The notes under the pieces: generated by a model | The model's database searches: none | Told to the model about the DNA's origin: nothing | The model's input: the letters and a program-made list of their open reading frames with translations, nothing else | From: Lagopus muta | Lineage: Eukaryota | Reading direction: 5' to 3' | NCBI RefSeq assembly: GCF_023343835.1 | Contig: NC_064458.1 | Location: 4,665,829 to 4,729,828, forward strand | Length of the DNA stretch: 64,000 bases | Shown here: piece after piece, positions 39,005-64,000 of the stretch | How positions within the stretch are numbered: the first letter of the stretch is position 1 | How the letters are laid out: every line of letters begins with the position of its first letter | Program-made: the position numbers and the translations under genes

Positions 39005-39960
39005 ATTACAGAATCACAGAATCACAGAATGGCCAGGGTTAGAAGGGACCTCAAGGATCATGAAGCTCCAACCCTCCTGCCACATGCAGGGCCACCAAAC
39101 TCCCCATTTAATACTAGACCAGATTGACCAGGGCCCCATCCAGCCTGGCCTTGAACACCTCCAGGGATGGACGGGGCATCCACAGCCTCTCTGGGCAGCT
39201 GTTCCACCACCTCACCACTCTCTCTGTAAAGAATTTCCCCCTAACGTCCTACCTCAATTTTCCCTCCCTCAACATCAAATCATTTCCCCTTGTCCTGCAG
39301 TTATCTATCGTTTCAGAGTTGATTCCCCTCCTGTTTGTAGGCTCCCTTTAGGCGCTGAAAGGCTGCAATGAGGTCACCCCACAGCCTTCTTTTCTGAAGG
39401 CTGAACAAACCCAGCTCTCTCAGTCTGTCTTTGTAGGGGAGCTGTTCCAGCCCCTGATCATCTTCATGGCTCTCCCCTGGACCCTCTCCAACAGCTCCCT
39501 GTCTTTTTTGTACTGGGGGTTCCAGACCTGGACACAGTGCTGCAGATAGGGCCTCACAAGAGCAGAGTAGAGGGGGACAATCACCTCCCTGTCCCTGCTG
39601 GCCAGCCTTCTTCTGATGGAGCACAGGATACCATTTGCATTCCAAGCCACAAGAGCACACTGCTGGCTCATGTTTTGTTTTTCATCTATCAAGACTCCCA
39701 GGTCCCTCTCTCTCAAGGTCTCAGGTCCCCTGCTCTCAAGGAGCTCCTTCCAGTCTGTAAGGATGCCTGGGATTCCTCCAGCCCAATGCCAAACTCTGCA
39801 TTTTGCTGTGTTGAACCTCATCAGGTTCACCCAGGCCCACCTTTCCAGCCTGTCACTCCATCACCAAAGGCCTCCAGCTGGCCCTGCGCCAGCACCCGAC
39901 TTCGTGACAGCCCACGTGGTTCAACCAGAGAACCCAACTGTGCCAGTATCCATAGCCCTT
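39005..39960 (-). mobile_element. CR1 LINE fragment (3' tail plus ORF2 RT C-terminal half); it forms the left boundary of tandem-array copy 1
   Basis: The plus strand reads cagaatcacagaatcacagaatggccagggttagaagggacctcaaggatcatgaagctccaaccc…cagcctctctgggcagctgttccaccacctcaccactctctctgtaaagaatttcccc. Minus-strand ORFs are …[86 protein letters not shown]… and …[33 protein letters not shown]. Confidence 0.85.
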
Positions 39961-40719
39961 ATTAAAAAGAGCAAAATGAGGCCGTGAAAATCAGCTCCTT
40001 TAATAAGAAAGGAAATACGTTCTAAGAGGGGGGTAGAAGAAGAGGATGAGAATGAAGCCAGGCCATGACAAGAACGGCAGGAGGAAGAGGCCGAACTCAT
40101 AAAGGAGACGAGAACCATTTGACTCCTGAGCACGAGTGAGCTGACAGATATGTGAAAAGACTTCAGCTGTCATGCAGGGGAGCACTCTGACACTGGGAGA
40201 ACGGGGCCGCAAGCCTGGACTAGGCGGGCAGCAAAGGCAGGCATCTGGGATCTCTTTCACGGGCAGGGTGCATTGGCAAAGCCCTTGGAAATGAGGCACG
40301 AGCCTTCCCCTCGTGGAGGTGACTCTCCGTAAGGGCCGAGAGGGAAAGGAGTCCCTTCAAAGAAGATCTGGTATGTTACCCAGGCAAGCGGTGCACCGTG
40401 GGGAAAGGTGTGCCTGAGGGCACCAGCTCTTCTGGAGGTGATGCGTAATGCTGAAAAAAGAGGGGAGATACAGACTGGCTGTTGGCCGGCAATTGCTGAT
40501 TCTGAGGGCCCAGGGCTGCCGCCATCTTGCTTGGGAGCCTGGGACGCATTCCGCCCCGAGGGGGTAACCGTGATGTCACAGTGGTGGCAGGGAGCGGCCA
40601 TTGTGACCCGCGGGGCTGGGAGCAGAGCAAAGGCTGCCGGGCTCAGAGCGTGGTCAGTGCGGCCTGGTGAGGTGCAGAGAGAGCAGGGACTCTTCAAGTG
40701 CTCACCGTTGACGCGCAAC

Positions 40720-43510
40720 ATGTCCAGTAGGAAGCGGAAGGCCCCCGACTCCGGGGAGCAAGGTGAGAGCAAAGCATCCCTGCGTGCAGCTCCCCGCCGC
40801 CGGGCAGAGGGGTGCTGGGGGTCTGCCAGCGGCAGAGAGGGAAGGGAGGGGCAGGAGCAAGGAGCACGGCCCTGGGGACCGCCCTCAGGGACAACTGGCC
40901 CCGCAAGGTGCTCACTGCTGCCCGCCTTTGCTCTCTCCTCTCCAGTGTGCATGCTGTGTCGCCGGGCGGATGTCGACCCGAACATCTGCGGGCGCACCTT
41001 TGCCGAGAGCGACCTTTGCGTGCATGAGTTCTGCTTGGTGAGTTCCAACCCTCAAGGGCTCCTGCCAGCTTCCTGCCAGGGATGCTCCCTTCCTGTCTGT
41101 CCTAATGAGATCCTGCTCTGCTCTTTCCCACAGCTTTTTTCTTTGAAGAAAAACACATTCTTTGAAGAAAGCGACCCCTGGGAGGAAACGCTGCGCCTCC
41201 CCGTTGGGACCATCAGATGCAGAATCAAGCAGGCGGACCAGAAGGTGAGCTTTGTGCCAGGAGAGGCTCACGCCAGCTTAGTCTGCACCCAGAGAAAGCA
41301 ATGGCAGCCCTTCCAGCGGGCTCCAGGGCAAAGTCCTGCCATAGCAGACGAGCCTTCTCCGCCAGGCGGCTCTGCAGAGTGGAGCCCAGCAGCTTCCGCA
41401 GCCTGTGCCCTGCCCAGAGGTGTGGGGCCGGCCGTGGAGGCCCTGAGCCTGCTGCTGATCGGGGCTGCCTTGTTCCTTTCAGCAATGCTTTGTTTGTGGC
41501 GAGAGAGGAGCCGCCATCAGCTGCGCAGAGAGAGGCTGTGCACGCAGCTTCCACCTGCCCTGCGCCGCGGACGGTGAATGCGTCACCCAGTTCTTTGGGC
41601 AGCACAGGTAAGGGCTGTCAGCAGCAGCCAAGCCAGGGAGGAACCCACAGCGACAGCTCCCAGCAGCCTGCCAGAGATGGGGCCTGGGGCTCCTGCCTGC
41701 TGCTCTGCCCTCCTGGCAGTGCTTCTCACTGTGCCCATCACTTGCATCGTCCCCCAGGTCCTTCTGCTGCGAGCACCGCCCGCGACAGGCAGCGGAGGCA
41801 GCTCCACCCCAAGGCACTGACTGCGTCATCTGCCTGGAGCCCCTGGAGGACAGCACGTCCTACCAGACCCTGTGGTGCCCAGCGTGCAAGCACACCTGGT
41901 TCCACCGCCGCTGCGTCCAGGTAGAAGCCCTCCCCTCACCCTGCGGCCACGGCCCGCGCTCAGCAGCACCGAGCCCCGCTCACGCTCACGCTGCTTCTGC
42001 TTCTCCGGCAGGGGCAGGCCACGAACGCCGGCACCATGTGCTTCCAGTGCCCCATTTGTTGAGACACGGAGCAATTCCGGGCAGAAATGTCCACTCTGGG
42101 GATCCAAGTCCCAGTCAGGTTGGTGTCCTTCTCCCCAGCGCTGCAGATGGGAAGGCGCGAGCGCTGGGCCTGCCCAGGGACTGTCCCGGCAGGCCTGGCC
42201 CTTTGCTGTCTCACCAGCACAGGCCTCAGCTTCACGGAGAAGCTGGAAATGGGGTTGCCTTGGATGAACGGGGATACCCCGGATCACACATGGCAGGGAA
42301 CCGGGAACTCATCGCATTCCCTCCCTTCTCTTGTAGGAGACCGTCTTGGTGGGATGACAACACCTACCCATCACTTCTGCGGAGGCACAGGCGCTGCGAT
42401 GTCAGCAAGTGCCTTTACCCAGGAGGCAGGGAGCAGGCAGAGGTGAATGGGTGAGTTACCTCAGCAGCCCTCTGGGCTTCTGCAGGGGATCTCCCCCTCA
42501 ACACCGGATGGGGAACCAGGGCTGAGCACCGCAGATGTGCCGGCCGCTGCCTGGCTTGGCTCACTTTGTCCTCACAGCCACAACCCGTTTGCTTCCCCAG
42601 GCCCTGGCAGCTGCTGCTCTGCAGCTCCTGTGCTGCAGAAGGGACCCACCGACGATGCTCCTACCTGAGCAACAGAGTTGGCAGCTGGGAGTGTGACAGC
42701 TGTGCTGGCATAGGCACCGGTAAGATGCAAACAGCTGTGGCTCCCTAGGCGGGGGCCGGGCAACGCCTGGCAGTGGGTGCTGCTCAGGGCGGCCCTGCCA
42801 GGCTCTCTCTGCCCCAGGAAGGAGGGCAGCCCGTTGCGACTCAAGGCTGCAGCTTCATCCCAATGATCACCTTCCTGCTTTCCTTTACAGCCTCCAGCAG
42901 CAACACGGAGCGCGCCGGACCCAGCACCAACACGGAGCGCGCCGGCCCCAGCACTTCCAGCCAAGGGGCTCCGGAGCCTCCCCGTGGCTCCCAGGGACCG
43001 GAGAACATCAGCTCCGGCTCCAGCAGCCAGGCAGCATCGGGCCCCTCACACCGGTCCCAGCTGCCTGAGAACAGCCGCCTGCCCAGTGAGCCTGGGACAC
43101 GGCAGAGGGCAATCGGCCCACGCCTCCCTGAGGATCAGGAGGCATCTCTGCAGCGCCGAGGACGCCGCGGGAGCGGCCGTGCAACAGCCCCGCGCACCAG
43201 CAGCAGCTCCCGCAGGTCCACCCCACGGAGGGCACCGCGGCCCTCCAGCGACTCCCCGGTGGCTGCACCCAGAAGGAGCCCCAGGCAGCAGGGGACGGGC
43301 CGGGCACGAAGCCGCTCCCCGCTTCAAGATCGGGCCTCACGTTCCCAGAGCCGGCCCAGAAGAAGCCGTGGCAGCAGACAAACACCACGCCGAGCTGCAC
43401 AGAGCAGCACCCTCTGCTCAGCCGCCCCAGTGACATCGAGGCCCTCGAGGGGTTCCCCGCTGCCTGGACACAGAAGACCCTCCAGGCAGCAAGGGAGGGC
43501 CCACACATGA
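40720..43510 (+). pseudogene. PHF7-like (PHD/ePHD zinc-finger, RING-like) gene with an SR/basic C-terminal tail, copy 1; premature TGA in exon 6. Exons: 40720-40762, 40946-41037, 41134-41244, 41483-41607, 41758-41920, 42012-42118, 42337-42450, 42601-42719, 42891-43510.
   Basis: Spliced product: MSSRKRKAPDSGEQ|VCMLCRRADVDPNICGRTFAESDLCVHEFCL|LFSLKKNTFFEESDPWEE..IRCRIKQADQK|QCFVCGERGAAISCAERGCARSFHLPCAADGECVTQFFGQHR|SFCCEHRPRQAAEAAPPQGTDCVICLEPLEDSTSYQTLWCPACKHTWFHRRCVQ|GQATNAGTMCFQCPIC*DTEQFRAEMSTLGIQVPVR|RPSWWDDNTYPSLLRRHRRCDVSKCLYPGGREQAEVNG|PWQLLLCSSCAAEGTHRRCSYLSNRVGSWECDSCAGIGT|ASSSNTERAGPS...RS-rich 206 aa...GRAHT*. Block-for-block it matches mammalian PHF7, recalled from memory ([118 protein letters not shown]). 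All introns are GT-AG. Codon 42060-42062 is TGA here but CGA in copies 2 and 3. Confidence 0.7.
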
Positions 43511-43692
43511 AGCCCTTCCGCAGCGGGATGTCAGGCTGCGACTTCCCACACAGACCCCAGCACGCCGCAGCAGCCAAACCCAACAGCAGCGGCCAGCCTG
43601 GGCACAAAGCTGCTCCCAGGTCCATCTGCAGAACCACATCCCCACAGCCAGACCTCAGTCTGCACAGGAGCAGCCGGGTGCCAATGACACCT

Positions 43693-43850
43693 GCTCAACT
43701 TGGTCAACATCAGCCAAGACGACAAATCCCACGCTCATTTACATCAGCTTGCTCAACTTGGTCAACATCAGCCAAGACGACAAATCCACGCTCATTTACA
43801 TCAGCTTGCTCAACTTGGTCAACATCAGCCAAGACAATAAATCCCACCCC
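43693..43850 (+). repeat. 58-bp minisatellite ×~3 (gctcaacttggtcaacatcagccaagacgacaaatcccacgctcatttacatcagctt), ~180 bp downstream of the PHF7-like stop. Copies also at 53802-53959 and 63911-64000 (partial).
   Basis: Direct repeats start at 43693, 43751 and 43808; the second lacks one C and the third diverges at its 3' end. Confidence 0.8.
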
Positions 43851-43929
43851 CACCCCCATCAGCTTCATTCTTCTCGTCTTTTCCTGGGGTGGGCAGAGTT
43901 CAGACCTCGACCACAGGGTTGCCTTCTCC

Positions 43930-45085
43930 CCAGCAGAATGGCTCAGGTTGGAGGGGCCCTTAAATATCATCCGGCTCTAACCCCCTTGCCGTGAGCAGGT
44001 TCATGCACCACCAGATCAGGATGCCCAGGATCCCATCCACCCTGGCCTCAAAGGACTCCAGCAACGGGGTGTCCTGAACCCCTCAGGGAGGAACCTCGCT
44101 GTTCCAGTGCCTCGCCACTCCCTGAGGAAACAGTTTCTTTCTAACACCTCATCTCTCTCTATCCTCTTTTAGTTTCATGCCATTCCCCCTTGTCCTGTCA
44201 CTATCAGAATGCATGAAAAAGTCAGTCCTCCTCCAGCTTGGCAGGACCCTTAAAAGTACGAGAAGGCTGTGGGCACAGAGGTCTCCTCAGAGCCTTCTGT
44301 TCTGAAAGCGAAGTGAACCCCACTCCCTCAACCTGCCTTCTGAGGTGCGGTGCTCCAGGCCTTGTCTTCTCTTTGCGGCCCTCCTCCGGACCCCCCCTCC
44401 CACCGCTCCACACCCCTCCTGTGCTTGGCACCCCAGGCTTGGGCGCAGTACTCCAGATGGATGCCCTCGCAAGGGCACAGCAGAGACGGACAATCACCGC
44501 CCTGCCCTGCTGGACACCTTCCTCAGGCCTTCCGGGCTGCAGGCACGCGCTGCTGGCTCATCTCCGGCTTTTTGGCCATTACGACCCCCAGGTCCTTCTC
44601 CACAGGGCTTCTCTCGCTGTCTTCTCCTCCCAGTCTCCACCCGTATCTGCGACTGCCTCAACCCAATCGCAACACCTTGCACTGGGCCTTGTTAAACCTC
44701 ACGAGATGCTCACGTGCCCTGTATTCCAGCCTGGGTCCAGGTCCCTCTGGATAGCGTCTCTGCCTTCTGCTGTGCCAAGCGCACCATCAGCTCGGTGCCG
44801 TCAGCTGGGGGTGCACTCAATCCCACCGTCTGTGTCCTTGATAAAAATGCTCACGAGCATCAGTCCCCAGACGGACCCCTGGGTGCCCGGCCTCCACCTG
44901 GACACAGAGCCGCTGGCAGCAATCCTCGGGCACAACATCCAAACAACCTGCATCCACCTGTCTGTTCAACACTCAAATGCACATCTCTCCACTTCAGACA
45001 TTAGGAGGTGCTGTGGGACGAAGACATCAGTCGCCCTTCCTTTGTCCATCACAGCCATCACTCCATCACCAAAGGCCTCCAGATG
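43930..45085 (-). mobile_element. CR1 LINE fragment (older, diverged) inside the repeat unit; copy also at 54039-55194
   Basis: …ctcgctgttccagtgcctcgccactccctgaggaaacagtttctttctaacacctcatctctctctatcctcttttagtttcatgccattcccccttgtcctgtcactatc…ggcgcagtactccagatggatgccctcgcaagggcacagcagagacggacaatcaccgccctgccctgctggacacc…catcactccatcaccaaaggcctccag is the reverse complement of the CR1 3' tail and ORF2 3' region. Confidence 0.7.
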
Positions 45086-46799
45086 GCTCAGGCACAGCCG
45101 CCCTTGCTGAAGCCGTGCTGGCTGTCTTAGGTCGCCTCCCCATCTCGCGTGTGCCTTCACATCTCCTCCAGGAGGATCCACCCCGCCATGTTCCCAGGCC
45201 CACAGATGAGGCACAGCGGCCTTCAGGCCCAGCTGGCTTCTGGCCCAGCCCCACTGAGGCACGAGGTCTCAAGTCAGGATGGATCAAGGCTCTGCTGGCA
45301 GGGCAGCCCAATTCTGGGGGTGTTTCATGGCTTGGGGTTGCCACTGTTCTGTATCGTTCATTCATTAGCAGCAAACCATTTCCATTTGTAGTATTTTTTA
45401 AAGCGTTGGGGGGAAAAAAAAGGAGAGAAACAAAGCGTAAAACTGGTGGGATATCTGACTTCTTTTTTCGTGAAGGTAGTGCGTCAATGCCTCGTTTGAT
45501 GTCAATGGTTGCAATTTTTCGTGAGGTCTTAATGCGTTTGTCAGATTTCTGATGAAATTTTACTCTTGCCATGCAATTGTTCACAAGCGTGCTGACTGCC
45601 AAAACGCGATGACGTGAATAAGGCTTGACTGCAAAGCGAGGGATATTTCTGTCTGTTAAAAGAGGTCTGACAGAAGTCCAGTCAGGAGACATGGTTAGAT
45701 TTTGGAGTCGAATATCTGGTTGGAACTCCAGGCATTCCAATTGAAAACTGGCAGGTAATGCATTTGTATCAACTTAAAATGGGGTCACCCACATAAAGGG
45801 ATGATTTTTTGGCAAAATTGAAACCGGTTTCCAAATTCCTTTATCAAAAGAGAAAGCATGGCTGCACATTCTTTGCTGTTCAGAGCACTGCGTGGGGCCG
45901 GGGCTGGGCTGCACTGCTGGCTGTGCGGAGCTGCGCATTGGGTACACCTGCTCTGGGTCCCAGAGAGAGCTCCAACACACAAAGTAAAGCAATACGGTGC
46001 CCAACTCTCTTGCAAAATACTACTTTAGGATTCAGCATTCACCAAGAAAGAGCAAACCTAGCTTTTACAACAGCTCACACAAATTACCCAAAGACACCCT
46101 GTGAGACAGAAAGCATGAAGATTCATGGAGGCAATCAGCTTTTTTTGGGGTGGAGTTTCAAGCACGCAGCCCAGCCTGGAGCACAGCCCCTTTTCCGTTT
46201 GTAATCCTGCAGGAGTAGAGCACCTGCTGGGGCACAGAGCATCATCTGGACAGTTTCCACTGACAGAAGTAGAGCATCATACTGGGGCAGAAAAAGAAAA
46301 AAAAAAGAAAAGAGCATAGCTATATTAAAATACTTTGAACTGAACTTTTCACCCTGCAGGATGAGCTCACTTCAGGGCTCACATCGTGAGAGGTTTGGAA
46401 AAAAATATTCAAACATCCTGATTTGTGTTTCCAGTGCTACGGATTAAAAGCTGCAGAAATGCCTTCTCCTCCACCATCCATCAACTCTGATCCTGGGACA
46501 GAGACCCACAAACTCCTCAGGGTTGGAAGGGTCCTCTGAGGGCCATCCGGACCAACCCCCCTGCAGCGCACAGGGACACCGCAGCTGGGTCAGGTCTCCA
46601 GGGACGGAGCACCCAGCGCACCTCTGTGCGACCTGTGCCAGTGCCTCACCACCTCTCTGCAGAAGATTTCGTCCCTATAGCCAACCTAAACCTCCCCTCT
46701 TGGAGCTTGCAGCCATTTCCCTCTCGGAGCTGGAAACCACACTGACACTTTGGTCAGTTTTGGAGCAGAAAATGAGATGAGATGTAGATAGACAGATAA

Positions 46800-47420
46800 C
46801 TCGATGTTTTTCTTCCTTGATTTACTATTTATTATGACCTCGCTGACCGACTGCACGCCGCACGCCCAGCACCGCCGCCAGCTCCAAGCACCACCAGCCC
46901 GCCGCGCCGCCAGCGCAGCGCCCTTACACCAACGAGCCGCCGCTTCCGCTCTTCTCGGCACATGCGCAGCACCAGCAGGAGGACCCGCTACCATCGAGTT
47001 GGAGGGCTGGAGGCACAGAGCAGTCAGAGCAAAGAGGCACCACTTCCGGGTTTCCGGAGGCGTCAGTGTCTGGAGGATCGCTTCGTATTACCGCAGGGAC
47101 GGGCGGTACGGAGCGGAGAGAGCAGAGCGACGCGTCGTGCCGCTCCGGGACGGCTCTGTGGTGCTCTGCGGGACCGTGCGGGCCCCGGGGGGCCCAGAGC
47201 GCCCAGAGCTCGTCTGACCCCCCGCTGCCCCTAAAACCGCCGCCGCGGCGGTCCCGACTGCAATTCTGCGCTCCGGTCAAGCGGTGGCAGCAGAGACCGA
47301 GAAAAGAGCGGCGTGGGGCGTGGGTACCGGCGATGGGAGCGGAGCGAGCCTGGGGCTTGGCTCTGCTCGGGTAAATGCGTCCATTCCAACTGCATTCAGG
47401 CTCGGCTAGCTCTGAGCTCT
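46800..47420. promoter_or_regulatory. CpG island (very CG-dense; cgccgc/gcgcgc runs) inside the repeat unit; copy also at 56909-57529
   Basis: Dense CpG content, e.g. gaccgactgcacgccgcacgcccagcaccgccgccagctccaagcaccaccagcccgccgcgccgccagcgcagcgccc… and ccgccgccgcggcggtcccgactgcaattctgcgctccggtcaagcgg. It ends at a possible ATG-plus-donor (47333-47370). Confidence 0.6.
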
Positions 47421-48989
47421 GCCAAAGTGGTTGGCATTTGTCATTGCTGAGCGCACAAAAGGCTCGACCAAAGGTGACGATGCCCGGAAGGCAGAAGGAT
47501 GGAGAAAAGCGTGGCCACATCCCTGGCACGGAGCCGAGCCCGTAGCTGGAGAAGGGGGTTGTTCTGCCGGATGTGGACTGGGAGCGGTTCTGTGCCACGG
47601 CCCGAATCTGCCCTTCTTTGGCTTCGGTCGGGCCAGGAGCTGCTGCGCGGTGCCGCACACCGTGCGTGTGCCGTAACCCCACGCTGCTCCGTGTGCACGG
47701 TGGTTGTGGAGGGCCGTGGTTGTGGGGGGGACCCGAGACCGCCTTCAGCCGGGCGACTGACTCCTGGCTTCTCCGCTGTACTTCGTACAACCTGTGTTTG
47801 TTGTGCACCTTTCACAAGCGTGTGACAGTACAGTGTTTGCTCTGATGCCTTCACAAGGCTGTCACAGCCGTGTCTCCTGTCTCCGGTTAGCCTGTCCACG
47901 GGTCCACCTGTGAACCAGACAGAAAGAGGGCGAGAATTCACAGTGTTACAGTTCTGTATGGCATTGTCACAGTCTGAGCCACAAAGAAACACGTCGCTTC
48001 CTTCACACGCCTACAGAGTATTGAGAGTGAGACATAAATATGTGCGTATACATGCATACAGAGCGTCTGATCCTTCACCAATCATAACAGAACTTCTTTT
48101 CACCAGCTGCGTATTCACATAGGTTTCACCTTTATAAATGTCCACAGTCCATAAATGCCTCATGAAGCTCATGCAGACTGGGACGTGCTTGATCGTTTTT
48201 CCAAATCATTTCACTGATGGGCTCCGCCACAAGCTCACCTGAAGCGCAACGGTGCCCAAGCCCAGTGAAAAGTGTTGAAAAGCAGCAAGGGGCTGGAGAT
48301 GGAGAAGGGTGAAAGAAGAGCTCGGGTGATGTTTGCACAAAGAACAGAACGTGGAGAGGAACAGCATCCCCAGGTCTTCAAATAGACAGAAGTGTTGAGA
48401 TTGTTTCACTCCCTTCTTCAAGAGTGGATGTGCAGTGGGGTTCATGCCAGCTGACCAGAAAGACACCAAACCTCTATTCATCAGGGGAAGAGAAGGGTTA
48501 GGATGAGCCTGGAAATTATCAACTACTTGGTGTACCATCCAGTCCCGGGACAATTCTAGAAGCTATCACCCAAAAAGTCTTTCTCAAAAGGTGAAATTTC
48601 CTAATGATTTTTGAAGTAGAAGTCACTCTAAGAGGAAATCAGATACAGTTGCACATACAGCACACAGTCCAAATGCGCAGAAATTTCTGTGCAAACTGTG
48701 CAAAACAAAATGGTAACAAACTCGTGAATGCCTCAGAACAAAAACTGTGCTGCTATGCTCCTGCGAAAGGTGCAGAACAAACATGTTGTGCGTGAGCACA
48801 ATGGAGAAGTCCGGAGTTTGTTGTCTTGCTTAAGGCGGTCTCGGTTCGATCCCCAGCCCCCCACACAACCACCACGCAATGGGAGAAGCATGACTGGTAT
48901 GGCATGCACACGGTACATGGCACCAGGCACACTCCACGCCATCTGGAAACTGCTCCTGAGCCAATTGGAAGGGCCCATCCTATGGCATA

Positions 48990-49990
48990 AAATGCATTGC
49001 CGACTCCACAGTAGGACCGTCACCCCGGACTTTGGGAGAGCAGGACCTCCTCAGTGGGCCTGCTTGGAGGTATCCCATGGACGGGAGCTTTGGCAAGTAG
49101 GCCCGAGAGAGCTGCTTGACACTTAAACACCGCTTCCTCCAAGCTCAAGATGGATGCATCCCTGAGAGCAAGAAAGCAGGGAAAAGTGGCAGGAGAACTG
49201 CTGGATAAGCAAGGGGCTCATGGATGGACTCAAAGGGAAGAGGAGCGTACACAGCACGTGGAAGAAGGGCATTTCTACTTGGAAAGAATGTATGAGCGTT
49301 GTCAGGGCCTGCAAGGATGCAATGAGGAAGGCTAAGGCACCCTTGGGATTAAATCCAGCAAAGGCGGTCGAGGAGAACAACAAGGGCTTTTGTGAGAATG
49401 TTGGTAGTAAAACTAAGACTGGAACACATGCGGGTCTGCCACTGAATGCCTTGGTAACAAGGGACAAAGAGAAGGCAGAGGTACTGAATGCCTTCTTTGC
49501 TTCCATCTTTACTACTAAGATTGCCCCTCCTAAATCCCAGGCCCTGGCGGTAAGAGAGAGAGTCTGGGGAATTAAAGACTTCCTCCTGCTTGAGGAGGAT
49601 CTGAACAGGAAGCGTGCAGGCAAAATCAGTGCTCGCAAATTCATGGGCCCTGTGGGGATGCACCCACGTGTGCTGAGAGAGCTGGTGGAGGTAATTGCTG
49701 AACTGCTCTCTATGATCTTGGAGAGGCCTTGGAGAACAGGAGAGCTGCCTGGATGCTGGAGGACAGCCAGCTTCGCACCAGTCATCGCACCGATGAGTGG
49801 GCAGTGAGATGGACTGGGAACTGGCTTGACGACCAAGAGATGATGGAGGGGCCTGGAGCATCTTCCTCACGAGAAAAGGCTGAGAGACCTAGGACTCTTC
49901 AGTCTGGAGAAGAAACGCATGAGCGGGGGATCTCATAACAGTTTGGCCCACTGCGACGGGCCCTGCGTCTGCTCCAAGCCATGAGACAGG
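48990..49990 (+). mobile_element. CR1 LINE fragment (ORF2 EN–RT linker region, internal deletion, then …GLFSLEKKR… segment) forming the 3' end of each repeat unit; copy also at 59099-60099
   Basis: ORF 49220-49807 is …KAKAPLGLNPAKAVEENNKGFCENVGSKTKTGTHAGLPLNALVTRDKEKAEVLNAFFASIFTTKIAPPKSQALAVRERVWG…RKFMGPVGMHPRVLRELVEVIAELLSMILERPWRTGELPGCWRTASFAPV (CR1 ORF2: KAKAQLELNLA..KDNKK.FYKY..SKR….AE.FNAFFASVF…HKSMGPDGIHPRVLKELADVIA.PLSIIF.RSW.SGEVP.DWK.ANV.PV), then …EKAERPRTLQSGEETHERGIS ([19 protein letters not shown]). Confidence 0.8.
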
Positions 49991-50828
49991 CCCTGCGCCA
50001 GCACCCGACTTCGTGACAGCCCACGTGGTTCAACCAGAGAACCCAACTGTGCCAGTATCCATAGCCCTTATTAAAAAGAGCAAAATGAGGCCGTGAAAAT
50101 CAGCTCCTTTAATAAGAAAGGAAATACGTTCTAAGAGGGGGGTAGAAGAAGAGGATGAGAATGAAGCCAGGCCATGACAAGAACGGCAGGAGGAAGAGGC
50201 CGAACTCATAAAGGAGACGAGAACCATTTGACTCCTGAGCACGAGTGAGCTGACAGATATGTGAAAAGACTTCAGCTGTCATGCAGGGGAGCACTCTGAC
50301 ACTGGGAGAACGGGGCCGCAAGCCTGGACTAGGCGGGCAGCAAAGGCAGGCATCTGGGATCTCTTTCACGGGCAGGGTGCATTGGCAAAGCCCTTGGAAA
50401 TGAGGCACGAGCCTTCCCCTCGTGGAGGTGACTCTCCGTAAGGGCCGAGAGGGAAAGGAGTCCCTTCAAAGAAGATCTGGTATGTTACCCAGGCAAGCGG
50501 TGCACCGTGGGGAAAGGTGTGCCTGAGGGCACCAGCTCTTCTGGAGGTGATGCGTAATGCTGAAAAAAGAGGGGAGATACAGACTGGCTGTTGGCCGGCA
50601 ATTGCTGATTCTGAGGGCCCAGGGCTGCCGCCATCTTGCTTGGGAGCCTGGGACGCATTCCGCCCCGAGGGGGTAACCGTGATGTCACAGTGGTGGCAGG
50701 GAGCGGCCATTGTGACCCGCGGGGCTGGGAGCAGAGCAAAGGCTGCCGGGCTCAGAGCGTGGTCAGTGCGGCCTGGTGAGGTGCAGAGAGAGCAGGGACT
50801 CTTCAAGTGCTCACCGTTGACGCGCAAC

Positions 50829-53619
50829 ATGTCCAGTAGGAAGCGGAAGGCCCCCGACTCCGGGGAGCAAGGTGAGAGCAAAGCATCCCTGCGTGCAGCT
50901 CCCCGCCGCCGGGCAGAGGGGTGCTGGGGGTCTGCCAGCGGCAGAGAGGGAAGGGAGGGGCAGGAGCAAGGAGCACGGCCCTGGGGACCGCCCTCAGGGA
51001 CAACTGGCCCCGCAAGGTGCTCACTGCTGCCCGCCTTTGCTCTCTCCTCTCCAGTGTGCATGCTGTGTCGCCGGGCGGATGTCGACCCGAACATCTGCGG
51101 GCGCACCTTTGCCGAGAGCGACCTTTGCGTGCATGAGTTCTGCTTGGTGAGTTCCAACCCTCAAGGGCTCCTGCCAGCTTCCTGCCAGGGATGCTCCCTT
51201 CCTGTCTGTCCTAACGAGATCCTGCTCTGCTCTTTCCCACAGCTTTTTTCTTTGAAGAAAAACACATTCTTTGAAGAAAGCGACCCCTGGGAGGAAACGC
51301 TGCGCCTCCCCGTTGGGACCATCAGATGCAGAATCAAGCAGGCGGACCAGAAGGTGAGCTTTGTGCCAGGAGAGGCTCACGCCAGCTTAGTCTGCACCCA
51401 GAGAAAGCAATGGCAGCCCTTCCAGCGGGCTCCAGGGCAAAGTCCTGCCATAGCAGACGAGCCTTCTCCGCCAGGCGGCTCTGCAGAGTGGAGCCCAGCA
51501 GCTTCCGCAGCCTGTGCCCTGCCCAGAGGTGTGGGGCCGGCCGTGGAGGCCCTGAGCCTGCTGCTGATCGGGGCTGCCTTGTTCCTTTCAGCAATGCTTT
51601 GTTTGTGGCGAGAGAGGAGCCGCCATCAGCTGCGCAGAGAGAGGCTGTGCACGCAGCTTCCACCTGCCCTGCGCCGCGGACGGTGAATGCGTCACCCAGT
51701 TCTTTGGGCAGCACAGGTAAGGGCTGTCAGCAGCAGCCAAGCCAGGGAGGAACCCACAGCGACAGCTCCCAGCAGCCTGCCAGAGATGGGGCCTGGGGCT
51801 CCTGCCTGCTGCTCTGCCCTCCTGGCAGTGCTTCTCACTGTGCCCATCACTTGCATCGTCCCCCAGGTCCTTCTGCTGCGAGCACCGCCCGCGACAGGCA
51901 GCGGAGGCAGCTCCACCCCAAGGCACTGACTGCGTCATCTGCCTGGAGCCCCTGGAGGACAGCACGTCCTACCAGACCCTGTGGTGCCCAGCGTGCAAGC
52001 ACACCTGGTTCCACCGCCGCTGCGTCCAGGTAGAAGCCCTCCCCTCACCCTGCGGCCACGGCCCGCGCTCAGCAGCACCGAGCCCCGCTCACGCTCACGC
52101 TGCTTCTGCTTCTCCGGCAGGGGCAGGCCACGAACGCCGGCACCATGTGCTTCCAGTGCCCCATTTGTCGAGACACGGAGCAATTCCGGGCAGAAATGTC
52201 CACTCTGGGGATCCAAGTCCCAGTCAGGTTGGTGTCCTTCTCCCCAGCGCTGCAGATGGGAAGGCGCGAGCGCTGGGCCTGCCCAGGGACTGTCCCGGCA
52301 GGCCTGGCCCTTTGCTGTCTCACCAGCACAGGCCTCAGCTTCACGGAGAAGCTGGAAATGGGGTTGCCTTGGATGAACGGGGATACCCCGGATCACACAT
52401 GGCAGGGAACCGGGAACTCATCGCATTCCCTCCCTTCTCTTGTAGGAGACCGTCTTGGTGGGATGACAACACCTACCCATCACTTCTGCGGAGGCACAGG
52501 CGCTGCGATGTCAGCAAGTGCCTTTACCCAGGAGGCAGGGAGCAGGCAGAGGTGAATGGGTGAGTTACCTCAGCAGCCCTCTGGGCTTCTGCAGGGGATC
52601 TCCCCCTCAACACCGGATGGGGAACCAGGGCTGAGCACCGCAGATGTGCCGGCCGCTGCCTGGCTTGGCTCACTTTGTCCTCACAGCCACAACCCGTTTG
52701 CTTCCCCAGGCCCTGGCAGCTGCTGCTCTGCAGCTCCTGTGCTGCAGAAGGGACCCACCGACGATGCTCCTACCTGAGCAACAGAGTTGGCAGCTGGGAG
52801 TGTGACAGCTGTGCTGGCATAGGCACCGGTAAGATGCAAACAGCTGTGGCTCCCTAGGCGGGGGCCGGGCAACGCCTGGCAGTGGGTGCTGCTCAGGGCG
52901 GCCCTGCCAGGCTCTCTCTGCCCCAGGAAGGAGGGCAGCCCGTTGCGACTCAAGGCTGCAGCTTCATCCCAATGATCACCTTCCTGCTTTCCTTTACAGC
53001 CTCCAGCAGCAACACGGAGCGCGCCGGACCCAGCACCAACACGGAGCGCGCCGGCCCCAGCACTTCCAGCCAAGGGGCTCCGGAGCCTCCCCGTGGCTCC
53101 CAGGGACCGGAGAACATCAGCTCCGGCTCCAGCAGCCAGGCAGCATCGGGCCCCTCACACCGGTCCCAGCTGCCTGAGAACAGCCGCCTGCCCAGTGAGC
53201 CTGGGACACGGCAGAGGGCAATCGGCCCACGCCTCCCTGAGGATCAGGAGGCATCTCTGCAGCGCCGAGGACGCCGCGGGAGCGGCCGTGCAACAGCCCC
53301 GCGCACCAGCAGCAGCTCCCGCAGGTCCACCCCACGGAGGGCACCGCGGCCCTCCAGCGACTCCCCGGTGGCTGCACCCAGAAGGAGCCCCAGGCAGCAG
53401 GGGACGGGCCGGGCACGAAGCCGCTCCCCGCTTCAAGATCGGGCCTCACGTTCCCAGAGCCGGCCCAGAAGAAGCCGTGGCAGCAGACAAACACCACGCC
53501 GAGCTGCACAGAGCAGCACCCTCTGCTCAGCCGCCCCAGTGACATCGAGGCCCTCGAGGGGTTCCCCGCTGCCTGGACACAGAAGACCCTCCAGGCAGCA
53601 AGGGAGGGCCCACACATGA
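50829..53619 (+). CDS. PHF7-like gene with SR/basic tail, copy 2 (apparently intact, ~497 aa). Exons: 50829-50871, 51055-51146, 51243-51353, 51592-51716, 51867-52029, 52121-52227, 52446-52559, 52710-52828, 53000-53619.
   Basis: Same exon structure as copy 1, shifted by +10109. Exon 6 reads MCFQCPICRDTEQFRAEMSTLGIQVPVR (CGA at 52169-52171), so the reading frame is open through to the stop at 53617-53619. Confidence 0.75.
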
Positions 53620-56600
53620 AGCCCTTCCGCAGCGGGATGTCAGGCTGCGACTTCCCACACAGACCCCAGCACGCCGCAGCAGCCAAACCCAACAGCAGCG
53701 GCCAGCCTGGGCACAAAGCTGCTCCCAGGTCCATCTGCAGAACCACATCCCCACAGCCAGACCTCAGTCTGCACAGGAGCAGCCGGGTGCCAATGACACC
53801 TGCTCAACTTGGTCAACATCAGCCAAGACGACAAATCCCACGCTCATTTACATCAGCTTGCTCAACTTGGTCAACATCAGCCAAGACGACAAATCCACGC
53901 TCATTTACATCAGCTTGCTCAACTTGGTCAACATCAGCCAAGACAATAAATCCCACCCCCACCCCCATCAGCTTCATTCTTCTCGTCTTTTCCTGGGGTG
54001 GGCAGAGTTCAGACCTCGACCACAGGGTTGCCTTCTCCCCAGCAGAATGGCTCAGGTTGGAGGGGCCCTTAAATATCATCCGGCTCTAACCCCCTTGCCG
54101 TGAGCAGGTTCATGCACCACCAGATCAGGATGCCCAGGATCCCATCCACCCTGGCCTCAAAGGACTCCAGCAACGGGGTGTCCTGAACCCCTCAGGGAGG
54201 AACCTCGCTGTTCCAGTGCCTCGCCACTCCCTGAGGAAACAGTTTCTTTCTAACACCTCATCTCTCTCTATCCTCTTTTAGTTTCATGCCATTCCCCCTT
54301 GTCCTGTCACTATCAGAATGCATGAAAAAGTCAGTCCTCCTCCAGCTTGGCAGGACCCTTAAAAGTACGAGAAGGCTGTGGGCACAGAGGTCTCCTCAGA
54401 GCCTTCTGTTCTGAAAGCGAAGTGAACCCCACTCCCTCAACCTGCCTTCTGAGGTGCGGTGCTCCAGGCCTTGTCTTCTCTTTGCGGCCCTCCTCCGGAC
54501 CCCCCCTCCCACCGCTCCACACCCCTCCTGTGCTTGGCACCCCAGGCTTGGGCGCAGTACTCCAGATGGATGCCCTCGCAAGGGCACAGCAGAGACGGAC
54601 AATCACCGCCCTGCCCTGCTGGACACCTTCCTCAGGCCTTCCGGGCTGCAGGCACGCGCTGCTGGCTCATCTCCGGCTTTTTGGCCATTACGACCCCCAG
54701 GTCCTTCTCCACAGGGCTTCTCTCACTGTCTTCTCCTCCCAGTCTCCACCCGTATCTGCGACTGCCTCAACCCAATCGCAACACCTTGCACTGGGCCTTG
54801 TTAAACCTCACGAGATGCTCACGTGCCCTGTATTCCAGCCTGGGTCCAGGTCCCTCTGGATAGCGTCTCTGCCTTCTGCTGTGCCAAGCGCACCATCAGC
54901 TCGGTGCCGTCAGCTGGGGGTGCACTCAATCCCACCGTCTGTGTCCTTGATAAAAATGCTCACGAGCATCAGTCCCCAGACGGACCCCTGGGTGCCCGGC
55001 CTCCACCTGGACACAGAGCCGCTGGCAGCAATCCTCGGGCACAACATCCAAACAACCTGCATCCACCTGTCTGTTCAACACTCAAATGCACATCTCTCCA
55101 CTTCAGACATTAGGAGGTGCTGTGGGACGAAGACATCAGTCGCCCTTCCTTTGTCCATCACAGCCATCACTCCATCACCAAAGGCCTCCAGATGGCTCAG
55201 GCACAGCCGCCCTTGCTGAAGCCGTGCTGGCTGTCTTAGGTCGCCTCCCCATCTCGCGTGTGCCTTCACATCTCCTCCAGGAGGATCCACCCCGCCATGT
55301 TCCCAGGCCCACAGATGAGGCACAGCGGCCTTCAGGCCCAGCTGGCTTCTGGCCCAGCCCCACTGAGGCACGAGGTCTCAAGTCAGGATGGATCAAGGCT
55401 CTGCTGGCAGGGCAGCCCAATTCTGGGGGTGTTTCATGGCTTGGGGTTGCCACTGTTCTGTATCGTTCATTCATTAGCAGCAAACCATTTCCATTTGTAG
55501 TATTTTTTAAAGCGTTGGGGGGAAAAAAAAGGAGAGAAACAAAGCGTAAAACTGGTGGGATATCTGACTTCTTTTTTCGTGAAGGTAGTGCGTCAATGCC
55601 TCGTTTGATGTCAATGGTTGCAATTTTTCGTGAGGTCTTAATGCGTTTGTCAGATTTCTGATGAAATTTTACTCTTGCCATGCAATTGTTCACAAGCGTG
55701 CTGACTGCCAAAACGCGATGACGTGAATAAGGCTTGACTGCAAAGCGAGGGATATTTCTGTCTGTTAAAAGAGGTCTGACAGAAGTCCAGTCAGGAGACA
55801 TGGTTAGATTTTGGAGTCGAATATCTGGTTGGAACTCCAGGCATTCCAATTGAAAACTGGCAGGTAATGCATTTGTATCAACTTAAAATGGGGTCACCCA
55901 CATAAAGGGATGATTTTTTGGCAAAATTGAAACCGGTTTCCAAATTCCTTTATCAAAAGAGAAAGCATGGCTGCACATTCTTTGCTGTTCAGAGCACTGC
56001 GTGGGGCCGGGGCTGGGCTGCACTGCTGGCTGTGCGGAGCTGCGCATTGGGTACACCTGCTCTGGGTCCCAGAGAGAGCTCCAACACACAAAGTAAAGCA
56101 ATACGGTGCCCAACTCTCTTGCAAAATACTACTTTAGGATTCAGCATTCACCAAGAAAGAGCAAACCTAGCTTTTACAACAGCTCACACAAATTACCCAA
56201 AGACACCCTGTGAGACAGAAAGCATGAAGATTCATGGAGGCAATCAGCTTTTTTTGGGGTGGAGTTTCAAGCACGCAGCCCAGCCTGGAGCACAGCCCCT
56301 TTTCCGTTTGTAATCCTGCAGGAGTAGAGCACCTGCTGGGGCACAGAGCATCATCTGGACAGTTTCCACTGACAGAAGTAGAGCATCATACTGGGGCAGA
56401 AAAAGAAAAAAAAAAGAAAAGAGCATAGCTATATTAAAATACTTTGAACTGAACTTTTCACCCTGCAGGATGAGCTCACTTCAGGGCTCACATCGTGAGA
56501 GGTTTGGAAAAAAATATTCAAACATCCTGATTTGTGTTTCCAGTGCTACGGATTAAAAGCTGCAGAAATGCCTTCTCCTCCACCATCCATCAACTCTGAT

Positions 56601-59600
56601 CCTGGGACAGAGACCCACAAACTCCTCAGGGTTGGAAGGGTCCTCTGAGGGCCATCCGGACCAACCCCCCTGCAGCGCACAGGGACACCGCAGCTGGGTC
56701 AGGTCTCCAGGGACGGAGCACCCAGCGCACCTCTGTGCGACCTGTGCCAGTGCCTCACCACCTCTCTGCAGAAGATTTCGTCCCTATAGCCAACCTAAAC
56801 CTCCCCTCTTGGAGCTTGCAGCCATTTCCCTCTCGGAGCTGGAAACCACACTGACACTTTGGTCAGTTTTGGAGCAGAAAATGAGATGAGATGTAGATAG
56901 ACAGATAACTCGATGTTTTTCTTCCTTGATTTACTATTTATTATGACCTCGCTGACCGACTGCACGCCGCACGCCCAGCACCGCCGCCAGCTCCAAGCAC
57001 CACCAGCCCGCCGCGCCGCCAGCGCAGCGCCCTTACACCAACGAGCCGCCGCTTCCGCTCTTCTCGGCACATGCGCAGCACCAGCAGGAGGACCCGCTAC
57101 CATCGAGTTGGAGGGCTGGAGGCACAGAGCAGTCAGAGCAAAGAGGCACCACTTCCGGGTTTCCGGAGGCGTCAGTGTCTGGAGGATCGCTTCGTATTAC
57201 CGCAGGGACGGGCGGTACGGAGCGGAGAGAGCAGAGCGACGCGTCGTGCCGCTCCGGGACGGCTCTGTGGTGCTCTGCGGGACCGTGCGGGCCCCGGGGG
57301 GCCCAGAGCGCCCAGAGCTCGTCTGACCCCCCGCTGCCCCTAAAACCGCCGCCGCGGCGGTCCCGACTGCAATTCTGCGCTCCGGTCAAGCGGTGGCAGC
57401 AGAGACCGAGAAAAGAGCGGCGTGGGGCGTGGGTACCGGCGATGGGAGCGGAGCGAGCCTGGGGCTTGGCTCTGCTCGGGTAAATGCGTCCATTCCAACT
57501 GCATTCAGGCTCGGCTAGCTCTGAGCTCTGCCAAAGTGGTTGGCATTTGTCATTGCTGAGCGCACAAAAGGCTCGACCAAAGGTGACGATGCCCGGAAGG
57601 CAGAAGGATGGAGAAAAGCGTGGCCACATCCCTGGCACGGAGCCGAGCCCGTAGCTGGAGAAGGGGGTTGTTCTGCCGGATGTGGACTGGGAGCGGTTCT
57701 GTGCCACGGCCCGAATCTGCCCTTCTTTGGCTTCGGTCGGGCCAGGAGCTGCTGCGCGGTGCCGCACACCGTGCGTGTGCCGTAACCCCACGCTGCTCCG
57801 TGTGCACGGTGGTTGTGGAGGGCCGTGGTTGTGGGGGGGACCCGAGACCGCCTTCAGCCGGGCGACTGACTCCTGGCTTCTCCGCTGTACTTCGTACAAC
57901 CTGTGTTTGTTGTGCACCTTTCACAAGCGTGTGACAGTACAGTGTTTGCTCTGATGCCTTCACAAGGCTGTCACAGCCGTGTCTCCTGTCTCCGGTTAGC
58001 CTGTCCACGGGTCCACCTGTGAACCAGACAGAAAGAGGGCGAGAATTCACAGTGTTACAGTTCTGTATGGCATTGTCACAGTCTGAGCCACAAAGAAACA
58101 CGTCGCTTCCTTCACACGCCTACAGAGTATTGAGAGTGAGACATAAATATGTGCGTATACATGCATACAGAGCGTCTGATCCTTCACCAATCATAACAGA
58201 ACTTCTTTTCACCAGCTGCGTATTCACATAGGTTTCACCTTTATAAATGTCCACAGTCCATAAATGCCTCATGAAGCTCATGCAGACTGGGACGTGCTTG
58301 ATCGTTTTTCCAAATCATTTCACTGATGGGCTCCGCCACAAGCTCACCTGAAGCGCAACGGTGCCCAAGCCCAGTGAAAAGTGTTGAAAAGCAGCAAGGG
58401 GCTGGAGATGGAGAAGGGTGAAAGAAGAGCTCGGGTGATGTTTGCACAAAGAACAGAACGTGGAGAGGAACAGCATCCCCAGGTCTTCAAATAGACAGAA
58501 GTGTTGAGATTGTTTCACTCCCTTCTTCAAGAGTGGATGTGCAGTGGGGTTCATGCCAGCTGACCAGAAAGACACCAAACCTCTATTCATCAGGGGAAGA
58601 GAAGGGTTAGGATGAGCCTGGAAATTATCAACTACTTGGTGTACCATCCAGTCCCGGGACAATTCTAGAAGCTATCACCCAAAAAGTCTTTCTCAAAAGG
58701 TGAAATTTCCTAATGATTTTTGAAGTAGAAGTCACTCTAAGAGGAAATCAGATACAGTTGCACATACAGCACACAGTCCAAATGCGCAGAAATTTCTGTG
58801 CAAACTGTGCAAAACAAAATGGTAACAAACTCGTGAATGCCTCAGAACAAAAACTGTGCTGCTATGCTCCTGCGAAAGGTGCAGAACAAACATGTTGTGC
58901 GTGAGCACAATGGAGAAGTCCGGAGTTTGTTGTCTTGCTTAAGGCGGTCTCGGTTCGATCCCCAGCCCCCCACACAACCACCACGCAATGGGAGAAGCAT
59001 GACTGGTATGGCATGCACACGGTACATGGCACCAGGCACACTCCACGCCATCTGGAAACTGCTCCTGAGCCAATTGGAAGGGCCCATCCTATGGCATAAA
59101 ATGCATTGCCGACTCCACAGTAGGACCGTCACCCCGGACTTTGGGAGAGCAGGACCTCCTCAGTGGGCCTGCTTGGAGGTATCCCATGGACGGGAGCTTT
59201 GGCAAGTAGGCCCGAGAGAGCTGCTTGACACTTAAACACCGCTTCCTCCAAGCTCAAGATGGATGCATCCCTGAGAGCAAGAAAGCAGGGAAAAGTGGCA
59301 GGAGAACTGCTGGATAAGCAAGGGGCTCATGGATGGACTCAAAGGGAAGAGGAGCGTACACAGCACGTGGAAGAAGGGCATTTCTACTTGGAAAGAATGT
59401 ATGAGCGTTGTCAGGGCCTGCAAGGATGCAATGAGGAAGGCTAAGGCACCCTTGGGATTAAATCCAGCAAAGGCGGTCGAGGAGAACAACAAGGGCTTTT
59501 GTGAGAATGTTGGTAGTAAAACTAAGACTGGAACACATGCGGGTCTGCCACTGAATGCCTTGGTAACAAGGGACAAAGAGAAGGCAGAGGTACTGAATGC

Positions 59601-63728: not shown

Positions 63729-64000
63729 AGCCCTTCCGCAGCGGGATGTCAGGCTGCGACTTCCCACACAGACCCCAGCACGCCGCAGCAGCCAAACCCA
63801 ACAGCAGCGGCCAGCCTGGGCACAAAGCTGCTCCCAGGTCCATCTGCAGAACCACATCCCCACAGCCAGACCTCAGTCTGCACAGGAGCAGCCGGGTGCC
63901 AATGACACCTGCTCAACTTGGTCAACATCAGCCAAGACGACAAATCCCACGCTCATTTACATCAGCTTGCTCAACTTGGTCAACATCAGCCAAGACGACA

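What the first reader, a model, noticed from the sequence alone, without database searches (positions are those of the whole stretch)
42060..42062. Copy-specific nonsense mutation: CGA→TGA in exon 6 of array copy 1 only
At the conserved CPIC-R zinc-finger motif (PHF7 'CPQCNNR'), copy 1 reads cccatttgtTGAgac while copies 2 and 3 read cccatttgtCGAgac (52169-52171 and 62278-62280). This is a classic CpG transition that truncates copy 1 after about 222 aa, removing the C-terminal zinc fingers and the SR tail. In so young an array it is either the first pseudogenisation event, a sequencing error, or a truncated isoform. It is also a handy diagnostic variant for telling the copies apart.
Basis: seen in the sequence. 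Interest (0 to 1): 0.65.

Follow-up and report, generated by a model that had tools for sequence, protein, structure and literature searches.

The report
Premature stop in one PHF7-like copy
One of three almost identical, tandemly repeated copies of a PHF7-like gene (a family known from sperm development) in the rock ptarmigan genome carries a single C-to-T change that makes a premature stop codon, which is most likely an ordinary, very recent gene-copy inactivation while the other copies stay intact.

Summary
Window 42060-42062 reads TGA, and the same codon in the next two repeat units (52169-71, 62278-80) reads CGA. The repeat has an exact 10,109-bp period with no indels. The window is Lagopus muta: copies 2 and 3 encode a 497-aa protein, and NCBI's 'PHD finger protein 7-like' proteins of L. 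muta contain it at 100% identity. The stop is in frame at codon 195 of a 9-exon GT-AG gene, directly after the last zinc-binding Cys pair of the RING domain.

Outgroups (L. leucura, Tympanuchus, chicken) all have CAA (Gln) here. The history is therefore CAA→CGA, specific to L. muta and creating a new CpG, then CGA→TGA in copy 1 only. The codon aligns with Asn208 of mammalian PHF7, the RING 'linchpin' position.

The stop is the only coding difference among the three copies. It should trigger nonsense-mediated decay. Any protein made would be ePHD+RING only, an architecture shown to be inactive for mouse PHF7.

The best reading is a real, recent CpG mutation that makes a nascent pseudogene or a segregating null allele. 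It sits in a young tandem array of a gene family already known to be expanded in Galliformes. This is ordinary and of low interest. Whether it is fixed or expressed cannot be tested here.

The parts
42060..42062 (+). Premature stop codon TGA (codon 195) in copy 1. It sits at the RING linchpin position, immediately after the last zinc-ligand pair C191/C194.
52169..52171 (+). The same codon in copy 2, reading CGA (Arg195)
62278..62280 (+). The same codon in copy 3, reading CGA (Arg195)
42012..42118 (+). Coding exon 6 of copy 1 (107 nt, AG...GT). The stop ends 56 nt before the exon's 3' end and 289 nt before the last exon junction. Skipping this exon would shift the frame.
40720..43510 (+). PHF7-like gene, copy 1, ATG to normal stop. 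Exons: 40720-40762, 40946-41037, 41134-41244, 41483-41607, 41758-41920, 42012-42118, 42337-42450, 42601-42719, 42891-43510. The ORF is interrupted at codon 195.
50829..53619 (+). PHF7-like gene, copy 2, intact. It encodes 497 aa, fully contained at 100% identity in NCBI's L. muta 'PHD finger protein 7-like' protein P0001 (590 aa; accessions include XP_048783370.1). A 497-aa L. muta member of the same cluster exists (P0126, XP_048783379.1/XP_048783380.1).
60938..63728 (+). PHF7-like gene, copy 3, intact and coding for the identical protein. Its intron-1 variant 61064A matches NCBI isoform XP_048783378.
39880..49988 (+). Array unit 1 (10,109 bp). Its left junction with unique sequence is at 39879|39880.
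49989..60097 (+). Array unit 2
60098..64000 (+). Array unit 3, cut off by the window end
41106..41106 (+). The second private derived variant of copy 1: T against C in copies 2 and 3 and in the outgroups. It is a CpG transition in intron 2.

Best explanation
This is a genuine germline C→T transition at a CpG in the first unit of a very young, 10.1-kb-period tandem array of PHF7-like genes. These genes encode ePHD-RING-PHD E3 ubiquitin ligases with a Ser/Arg-rich tail. The organism is the rock ptarmigan, Lagopus muta.

The codon was CAA (Gln) in the galliform ancestor. It became CGA (Arg) in the L. muta lineage before the present copies arose, and that change created a hypermutable CpG. In copy 1 it then decayed to TGA.

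The stop falls in exon 6 of 9, so the mRNA should be a target of nonsense-mediated decay. Any protein that escaped would end at the last RING cysteine. It would lack the linchpin residue, the C-terminal PHD finger that binds H3 and clamps the E2, and the RS tail. By analogy with mouse PHF7 constructs it would be inactive as a ligase.

Copy 1 is therefore a nascent pseudogene, or a null allele still segregating in the population. Its loss is buffered by at least two identical intact copies next to it and at least one further copy elsewhere on the same scaffold.

Shown: the sequence, the reading frame, the direction of the change, the domain position, and the intactness and constraint of the paralogues and orthologues. 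Inferred: NMD, loss of function, the reality of the variant at read level, and its population frequency.
For: - Sequence and frame.
- Identity of the gene and organism: 100% identity over the whole query to P0001, a Lagopus muta 'PHD finger protein 7-like' protein, on a 4.86-Mb scaffold.
- Direction of change: CAA in both L. leucura copies, in Tympanuchus and in chicken. The outgroup base at 42060 is C.
- Copies 1 and 2 are sister copies sharing derived 40253T and 40846G. Copy 1 has only two private derived changes, both CpG C→T.
- All 8 differences between copies are transitions and 5 are at CpG. This is the spectrum of real mutation, not of HiFi consensus error.
- The assembly is PacBio HiFi/hifiasm at 57.75x (PMC10320755). 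The site lies 2.2 kb from the unique left junction.
- The gene is constrained: dN/dS is 0.2-0.5 across four galliforms and the ORFs are intact.
- Domains: ePHD 41-131 and RING 145-195; C-terminal PHD 222-287.
- R195 aligns with PHF7 Asn208, the linchpin position. N208A abolishes activity, the ePHD-RING construct does not bind UBE2D2~Ub, and the C-terminal PHD binds H3 and contacts the E2 (PMC10760634).
- NMD geometry: the stop is 289 nt upstream of the last exon junction. Exon 6 is 107 nt, so skipping it shifts the frame.
- Defective copies also occur in the chicken array.
- PHF7 expansion in Galliformes is already documented (PMC11835228, PMC10360393).
Against: - No reads, population data or transcripts could be examined. 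Read support, zygosity, fixation and NMD are all unverified.
- Apart from the stop, copy 1 shows no other disabling lesion, so nothing independent confirms loss of constraint.
- A nonsense change among only 8 differences had a prior of only about 4%.
- The NCBI status of copy 1 (pseudogene or merged into a neighbouring gene model) could not be retrieved.
Confidence: 0.86

Rival explanations
1. Assembly or consensus artefact. The T is a base-calling or polishing error, or a variant from another copy or haplotype wrongly placed in copy 1 of a near-identical tandem repeat.
For: The copies are 99.87-99.97% identical over 10.1 kb. That is a difficult case for any assembler, and no reads were available to check.
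Against: HiFi/hifiasm at 57.75x rarely produces substitution errors; its typical errors are homopolymer indels. The window has no Ns or gaps. The site is 2.2 kb from the unique left junction, well within single reads. The change has the same transition/CpG spectrum as the other 7 differences, which polarise cleanly on outgroups.
Confidence: 0.06
2. Functional truncated isoform. Copy 1 has been neo-functionalised to make an ePHD-RING protein, for example a nucleosome/DNA-binding competitor or dominant negative of the full-length ligase in spermatids.
For: The stop falls exactly at the end of the RING, after all eight zinc ligands, so two folded domains remain intact. The ePHD alone binds nucleosomal DNA in PHF7 (PMC10760634). 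Amplified testis gene families are often involved in genetic conflict (general knowledge).
Against: The stop lies 289 nt upstream of the last exon junction, so NMD is expected. The ePHD-RING construct of PHF7 has no E2~Ub binding. The mutation is one of only two private changes in copy 1 and sits at a hypermutable CpG, which is what neutral decay predicts. No truncated L. muta product appears among the database homologues.
Confidence: 0.05
3. Stop-codon recoding: the TGA is read as selenocysteine or read through, so copy 1 still makes a full-length protein.
For: TGA is the codon used for Sec and is the leakiest stop codon (general knowledge).
Against: No SECIS element or any other Rfam family was detected in the window. 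The 3' regions of all three copies are identical, so copy 1 has no recoding element of its own. The ancestral residues are Gln and Arg, not Cys or Sec.
Confidence: 0.01

Closest known systems
PHF7 (mammalian PHD finger protein 7; structures 8jwj, 8jwu, 1weq)
   Same: Same ePHD-RING-PHD architecture. The match to the solved PHF7 chain has E = 3e-58 over residues 11-288. The C-P-x-C last ligand pair is invariant. The mutated codon aligns with the RING linchpin position, Asn208.
   Different: The avian paralogue carries a 209-aa Ser/Arg-rich tail (40% S+R). That tail was not part of the query compared with the solved PHF7 chains, which match only residues 11-288. The linchpin residue is Arg in L. 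muta, Gln in the orthologues and Asn in mammalian PHF7. The avian gene is multi-copy.
Expanded PHF7 gene family of chicken and turkey (Fouchécourt et al. 2022 Genomics, as cited in PMC11835228 and PMC10360393)
   Same: The direct chicken orthologue (P0002, 85% identity) also lies in a head-to-tail array with a period of about 9.8 kb. The copies are near-identical, and at least one copy in GRCg7w is frameshifted.
   Different: The L. muta unit has different boundaries: the 49988|39880 junction and the terminal 452 bp are absent from the relatives' loci. L. leucura and Tympanuchus show an inverted second copy instead of a direct tandem. The chicken array lies next to MVP.
CGA→TGA CpG-transition nonsense mutations (the classic hotspot class in vertebrate genes)
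   Same: A methyl-CpG deamination type C→T change converting an Arg CGA codon to a TGA stop.
   Different: Here the CGA codon was itself only recently created, from CAA in the L. muta lineage. The hit falls on a redundant duplicate rather than a single-copy gene.

Membership tests
PHF7/G2E3-type ePHD-RING-PHD E3 ligase | N-terminal extended PHD (zf-HC5HC2H) | tested here: met
   Pfam PF13771, E = 3.6e-12, residues 41-131. Aligns to the PHF7 ePHD structure 8jws.
PHF7/G2E3-type ePHD-RING-PHD E3 ligase | RING domain with a complete set of zinc ligands | tested here: met
   PF13639 covers residues 145-195, above the gathering score. C146, C149, C164, C167, H173, C176, C191 and C194 are invariant in 82 homologues.
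PHF7/G2E3-type ePHD-RING-PHD E3 ligase | C-terminal PHD finger (PHD_G2E3, PF26054; PDB 1weq) | tested here: met
   Present in copies 2 and 3: residues 222-287 align to 1weq, and PF26054 is precomputed for P0001. It is encoded downstream of the stop in copy 1, so it is absent from any copy-1 product.
PHF7/G2E3-type ePHD-RING-PHD E3 ligase | Histone H3 ubiquitin-ligase activity and testis expression | not testable with these tools
   Known for mouse/human PHF7 and for rooster testis only from the literature (PMC10760634, PMC10360393).
Nascent duplicated (unprocessed) pseudogene | In-frame disabling lesion in a copy whose paralogues and orthologues are intact and constrained | tested here: met
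   TGA at codon 195 in copy 1 only. dN/dS is 0.2-0.5 and the ORFs are intact in four species.
Nascent duplicated (unprocessed) pseudogene | Further signs of relaxed constraint (additional lesions, excess non-synonymous change) | tested here: not met
   The stop is the only coding difference. The other private change of copy 1 is intronic. The copy is too young for this test to be informative.
Nascent duplicated (unprocessed) pseudogene | Lesion fixed in the species and real at read level | not testable with these tools
   No reads or population data were available.
NMD substrate | Premature stop more than 50-55 nt upstream of the last exon-exon junction | tested here: met
   The stop is 289 nt upstream of the last junction, with three junctions downstream. 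Actual decay was not tested.
Selenoprotein / recoded TGA | SECIS element in the 3' UTR, and Cys/Sec at the orthologous position | tested here: not met
   No Rfam hit in the window. The orthologous residues are Gln, Arg, Gly, Lys, Ser and Asn.

The most novel reading that the evidence does not exclude
The truncated ePHD-RING product of copy 1 escapes NMD in spermatids. It binds nucleosomal DNA without ligase activity and modulates or antagonises the full-length PHF7-like ligases, as a new regulator born within a rapidly amplifying testis gene array. A related possibility is that the L. muta-specific Gln→Arg change, which restores a canonical RING linchpin arginine, raised ligase activity, and that loss of one copy offsets the extra dosage.
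Probability: 0.04. Interest if true: 0.55.

Novelty: new member of a known kind. Interest (0 to 1): 0.2.

Why it matters
The main value is for annotation and housekeeping. The finding says that the first unit of the L. muta PHF7-like array should be treated as a pseudogene or null allele. It also supplies two copy-1-specific markers (41106T, 42060T) for genotyping a repeat that is otherwise 99.97% identical.

It is a tidy small example of birth-and-death evolution in a testis gene family already known to be expanded in Galliformes. It also shows how a substitution that creates a CGA codon sets up the next mutation, a nonsense change. The position of the codon at the RING linchpin residue, and the Gln→Arg change there in L. 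muta, could interest people working on PHF7 enzymology. None of this bears on an open question.

Tried and rejected
- Retrieving the L. muta locus and its NCBI gene calls by exact protein look-up failed for P0126, P0001 and P0128. I could not see how NCBI annotates copy 1 or how far the array extends beyond the window.
- CR1-mediated unequal recombination as the origin of the array is rejected. The left flank and the unit end share no alignable homology at the junction. There are only unrelated weak matches elsewhere in the unit.
- More PHF7-like copies or fragments upstream in the window: none found by tblastn.
- Selenocysteine recoding: no SECIS or any Rfam hit.
- The Fouchécourt 2022 paper is not held in the library. 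I used it only as cited by two other papers.
- The idea that the array is ancient and merely homogenised holds only in part. Chicken has a comparable tandem array, but with different unit boundaries. The two nearest relatives show an inverted arrangement and lack the L. muta junction. The present L. muta direct repeats are therefore best treated as recent and lineage-specific. Collapse of repeats in the relatives' assemblies cannot be excluded.

Full report
**Observation**

Window 42060-42062 reads TGA within cccatttgtTGAgac. The positions one and two repeat periods downstream (52169-71 and 62278-80) read CGA in an identical context.

A self-comparison shows a head-to-tail repeat with a period of exactly 10,109 bp. 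It starts at 39880 and runs to the end of the window, with no indels and no Ns.
- Unit 1 is 39880-49988, unit 2 is 49989-60097, and unit 3 is 60098-64000 (truncated by the window).
- Units 1 and 2 differ at three sites in 10,109 bp: 41106, 42060 and 44616.
- Units 2 and 3 differ at five sites in 3,903 bp.
- All eight differences are transitions and five are at CpG dinucleotides.

**What the gene is**

Stop-to-stop ORFs and inspection of splice sites give a nine-exon model with canonical GT-AG introns. The model lies wholly inside each unit.
- Copies 2 and 3 encode an identical 497-aa protein.
- That protein is contained at 100% identity, over its whole length, in P0001, a Lagopus muta protein that NCBI names 'PHD finger protein 7-like' (590 aa, an in-frame upstream extension). 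P0001 is on a 4.86-Mb scaffold, and its cluster also holds 497-aa and 558-aa L. muta members.
- Pfam finds an extended PHD finger at 41-131 and a RING finger at 145-195.
- Residues 222-287 match the solved C-terminal PHD of PHF7 (1weq), and residues 11-288 match the PHF7 crystal structures 8jwj and 8jwu at E = 3e-58.
- The last 209 residues are 40% Ser+Arg.
- The window holds no other PHF7-like sequence.

**Position and consequence of the stop**

The stop is codon 195, in coding exon 6 (42012-42118), and is in frame. It comes immediately after C191-P-I-C194, the last zinc-ligand pair of the RING. It is the only coding difference among the three copies.
- Truncation is after 194 residues, or 287 if the upstream ATG of the NCBI 590-aa isoform is used. 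It is not about 222.
- The stop lies 56 nt before the end of exon 6 and 289 nt before the last exon junction. By the standard 50-55-nt rule the transcript should undergo nonsense-mediated decay.
- Exon 6 is 107 nt, so skipping it does not restore the frame.
- No SECIS or any other Rfam family is present in the window.

**Direction and history of the change**

I fetched the orthologous loci from L. leucura (L001), Tympanuchus pallidicinctus (L002) and chicken (L003-L008).
- All of them, including both L. leucura copies, have CAA (Gln) at this codon.
- The path was therefore CAA→CGA in the L. muta lineage, which created a new CpG, followed by CGA→TGA in copy 1 alone.
- The CGA state is also present in a further, more divergent L. 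muta paralogue outside the window (P0128). The Gln→Arg step therefore predates the current copies.
- Polarising all eight variable sites with the outgroups shows that copies 1 and 2 are sister copies. They share derived 40253T and 40846G.
- Copy 1 has only two private derived changes, 41106T (intron 2) and 42060T. Both are CpG C→T changes.

**Is the residue conserved?**

- The HMMER alignment to PHF7 places R195 opposite the first Asn after the Cys pair. The Arg of 'CPQCNNR' aligns with T197.
- In 82 avian PHF7-like proteins the column reads R 56, Q 12, G 10, K 3, S 1, while C191, P192 and C194 are invariant.
- The position is nonetheless meaningful. Lee et al. 2023 (PMC10760634) identify the residue after the last RING cysteine as the 'linchpin' position. 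It is Asn in PHF7, and they report that N208A abolishes activity.
- The same paper shows that an ePHD-RING construct does not bind UBE2D2~Ub. It also shows that the C-terminal PHD binds the H3 tail and clamps the E2, and that all three domains are required.
- By extrapolation, any copy-1 protein would be catalytically dead. It might still bind nucleosomal DNA through the ePHD.

**Is the gene otherwise functional?**

- Nei-Gojobori dN/dS between L. muta and the three other species is 0.3-0.5 overall and 0.2-0.4 in the zinc-finger part, with intact ORFs throughout.
- The family is thus under purifying selection, and the stop is a true loss relative to a constrained state.
- With 7 CGA codons and 428 CpGs per unit, the chance that at least one of eight differences would be a nonsense change is about 4%. 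This is slightly unlucky but not anomalous.

**Age and nature of the array**

- Copy-to-copy divergence is 0.03% (copies 1 and 2) and 0.13% (copies 2 and 3).
- Substitution divergence from L. leucura is about 1.0-1.2%, and dS is 0.017.
- The duplications therefore date to a few percent, up to about a tenth, of the time since the two ptarmigan species split.
- The junction 49988|39880 shows no shared repeat. It is absent from the L. leucura and Tympanuchus loci. In both, homology breaks at the point equivalent to 49536 and a second copy lies in inverted orientation.
- Chicken has its own head-to-tail array of the orthologue with a period of about 9.8 kb, next to MVP. Its copies encode nearly identical proteins, and at least one copy in GRCg7w is frameshifted.
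- Expansion of PHF7 genes in chicken and turkey is already documented.

**Reliability**

The assembly (bLagMut1) was built from PacBio HiFi reads with hifiasm at 57.75x, from one Icelandic female (PMC10320755).
- HiFi consensus errors are overwhelmingly homopolymer indels rather than substitutions (general knowledge).
- The variant lies 2.2 kb from a unique junction.
- It has the same mutational spectrum as the other differences.

I therefore judge an artefact unlikely, at about 6%. I could not examine reads. The variant could equally be a heterozygous or low-frequency null allele rather than a fixed difference.

**Verdict**

Its mechanistic reading is ordinary: a CpG-transition nonsense mutation that inactivates one redundant copy in a young tandem array of a gene family known to be expanded in Galliformes. 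The added details are the two-step CAA→CGA→TGA history and the location at the RING linchpin codon. Interest is low.

Noticed in passing
L001 14661-23085; L002 1-2817 and 15122-19493 (compare window 41714-49536): In L. leucura and Tympanuchus the second PHF7-like copy lies in inverted, palindrome-like orientation, not in direct tandem. The 4.1-kb segment equivalent to window 45455-49536 has opposite orientation in the two species. Homology to L. muta breaks at the same point (49536) in both. This could be a real flipping spacer between inverted arms or an assembly problem.
   Followed up: partly
L003-L008 (chicken GRCg7b CM028509.1 about 439-504 kb; GRCg7w CM028550.1 about 26-72 kb): The chicken orthologue forms a head-to-tail array with a period of about 9.8 kb next to MVP. 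At least 6 copies were sampled per assembly. Most encode an identical protein. One GRCg7w copy (L007 19723-22916) is frameshifted and is annotated as a 414-aa product lacking the ePHD.
   Followed up: partly
window 52169-52171 and 62278-62280 (codon 195): L. muta has Arg (CGA) at the RING linchpin position where L. leucura, Tympanuchus, chicken and Chrysolophus have Gln (CAA) and mammalian PHF7 has Asn. A canonical linchpin Arg might raise E3 activity. This was not tested.
   Followed up: partly
window 49537-49988 and 59646-60097: The last 452 bp of each unit is a CR1-like fragment: the start of the reverse-transcriptase ORF joined to a CR1 3' end. It has no counterpart in the fetched L. leucura or Tympanuchus loci. 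The array junction has no flanking homology, which suggests a non-homologous origin for the duplication.
   Followed up: partly
outside the window (protein P0128 = XP_048783196.1, same 4.86-Mb scaffold): A further L. muta PHF7-like paralogue keeps the ancestral Arg in 'EASLRRRG', where the window copies have Gln. It has an Arg→His change in the N-terminal extension and an alternative 3' splice within exon 9. It shows that the family has at least four copies in L. muta, and it also carries Arg195.
   Followed up: no
window 53012-53071 (exon 9; same in copies 1 and 3): Grouse carry a tandem duplication of a 10-residue motif (NTERAGPST-NTERAGPST) at the start of the RS tail. Chicken has a single copy, seen as a 10-codon gap in the alignment.
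   Followed up: no
L001 about 11600 and its inverted copy (codon 188): Both L. leucura copies share Cys188→Ser (MSFQCPIC against MCFQCPIC) and several other species-specific substitutions. The copies within each species therefore share lineage-specific changes, through concerted evolution or independent recent duplication.
   Followed up: no
window 30434-33836; also 18.3-18.7, 28.2-28.7, 30.3-30.7 and 39.0-39.9 kb: By colinearity with L001, the region upstream of the array holds the 3' part of a ceramide-synthase-like gene (TRAM_LAG1_CLN8 plus homeodomain). Several CR1 3'-end fragments are scattered through the upstream 40 kb. No Rfam RNA families were found in the whole window.
   Followed up: no
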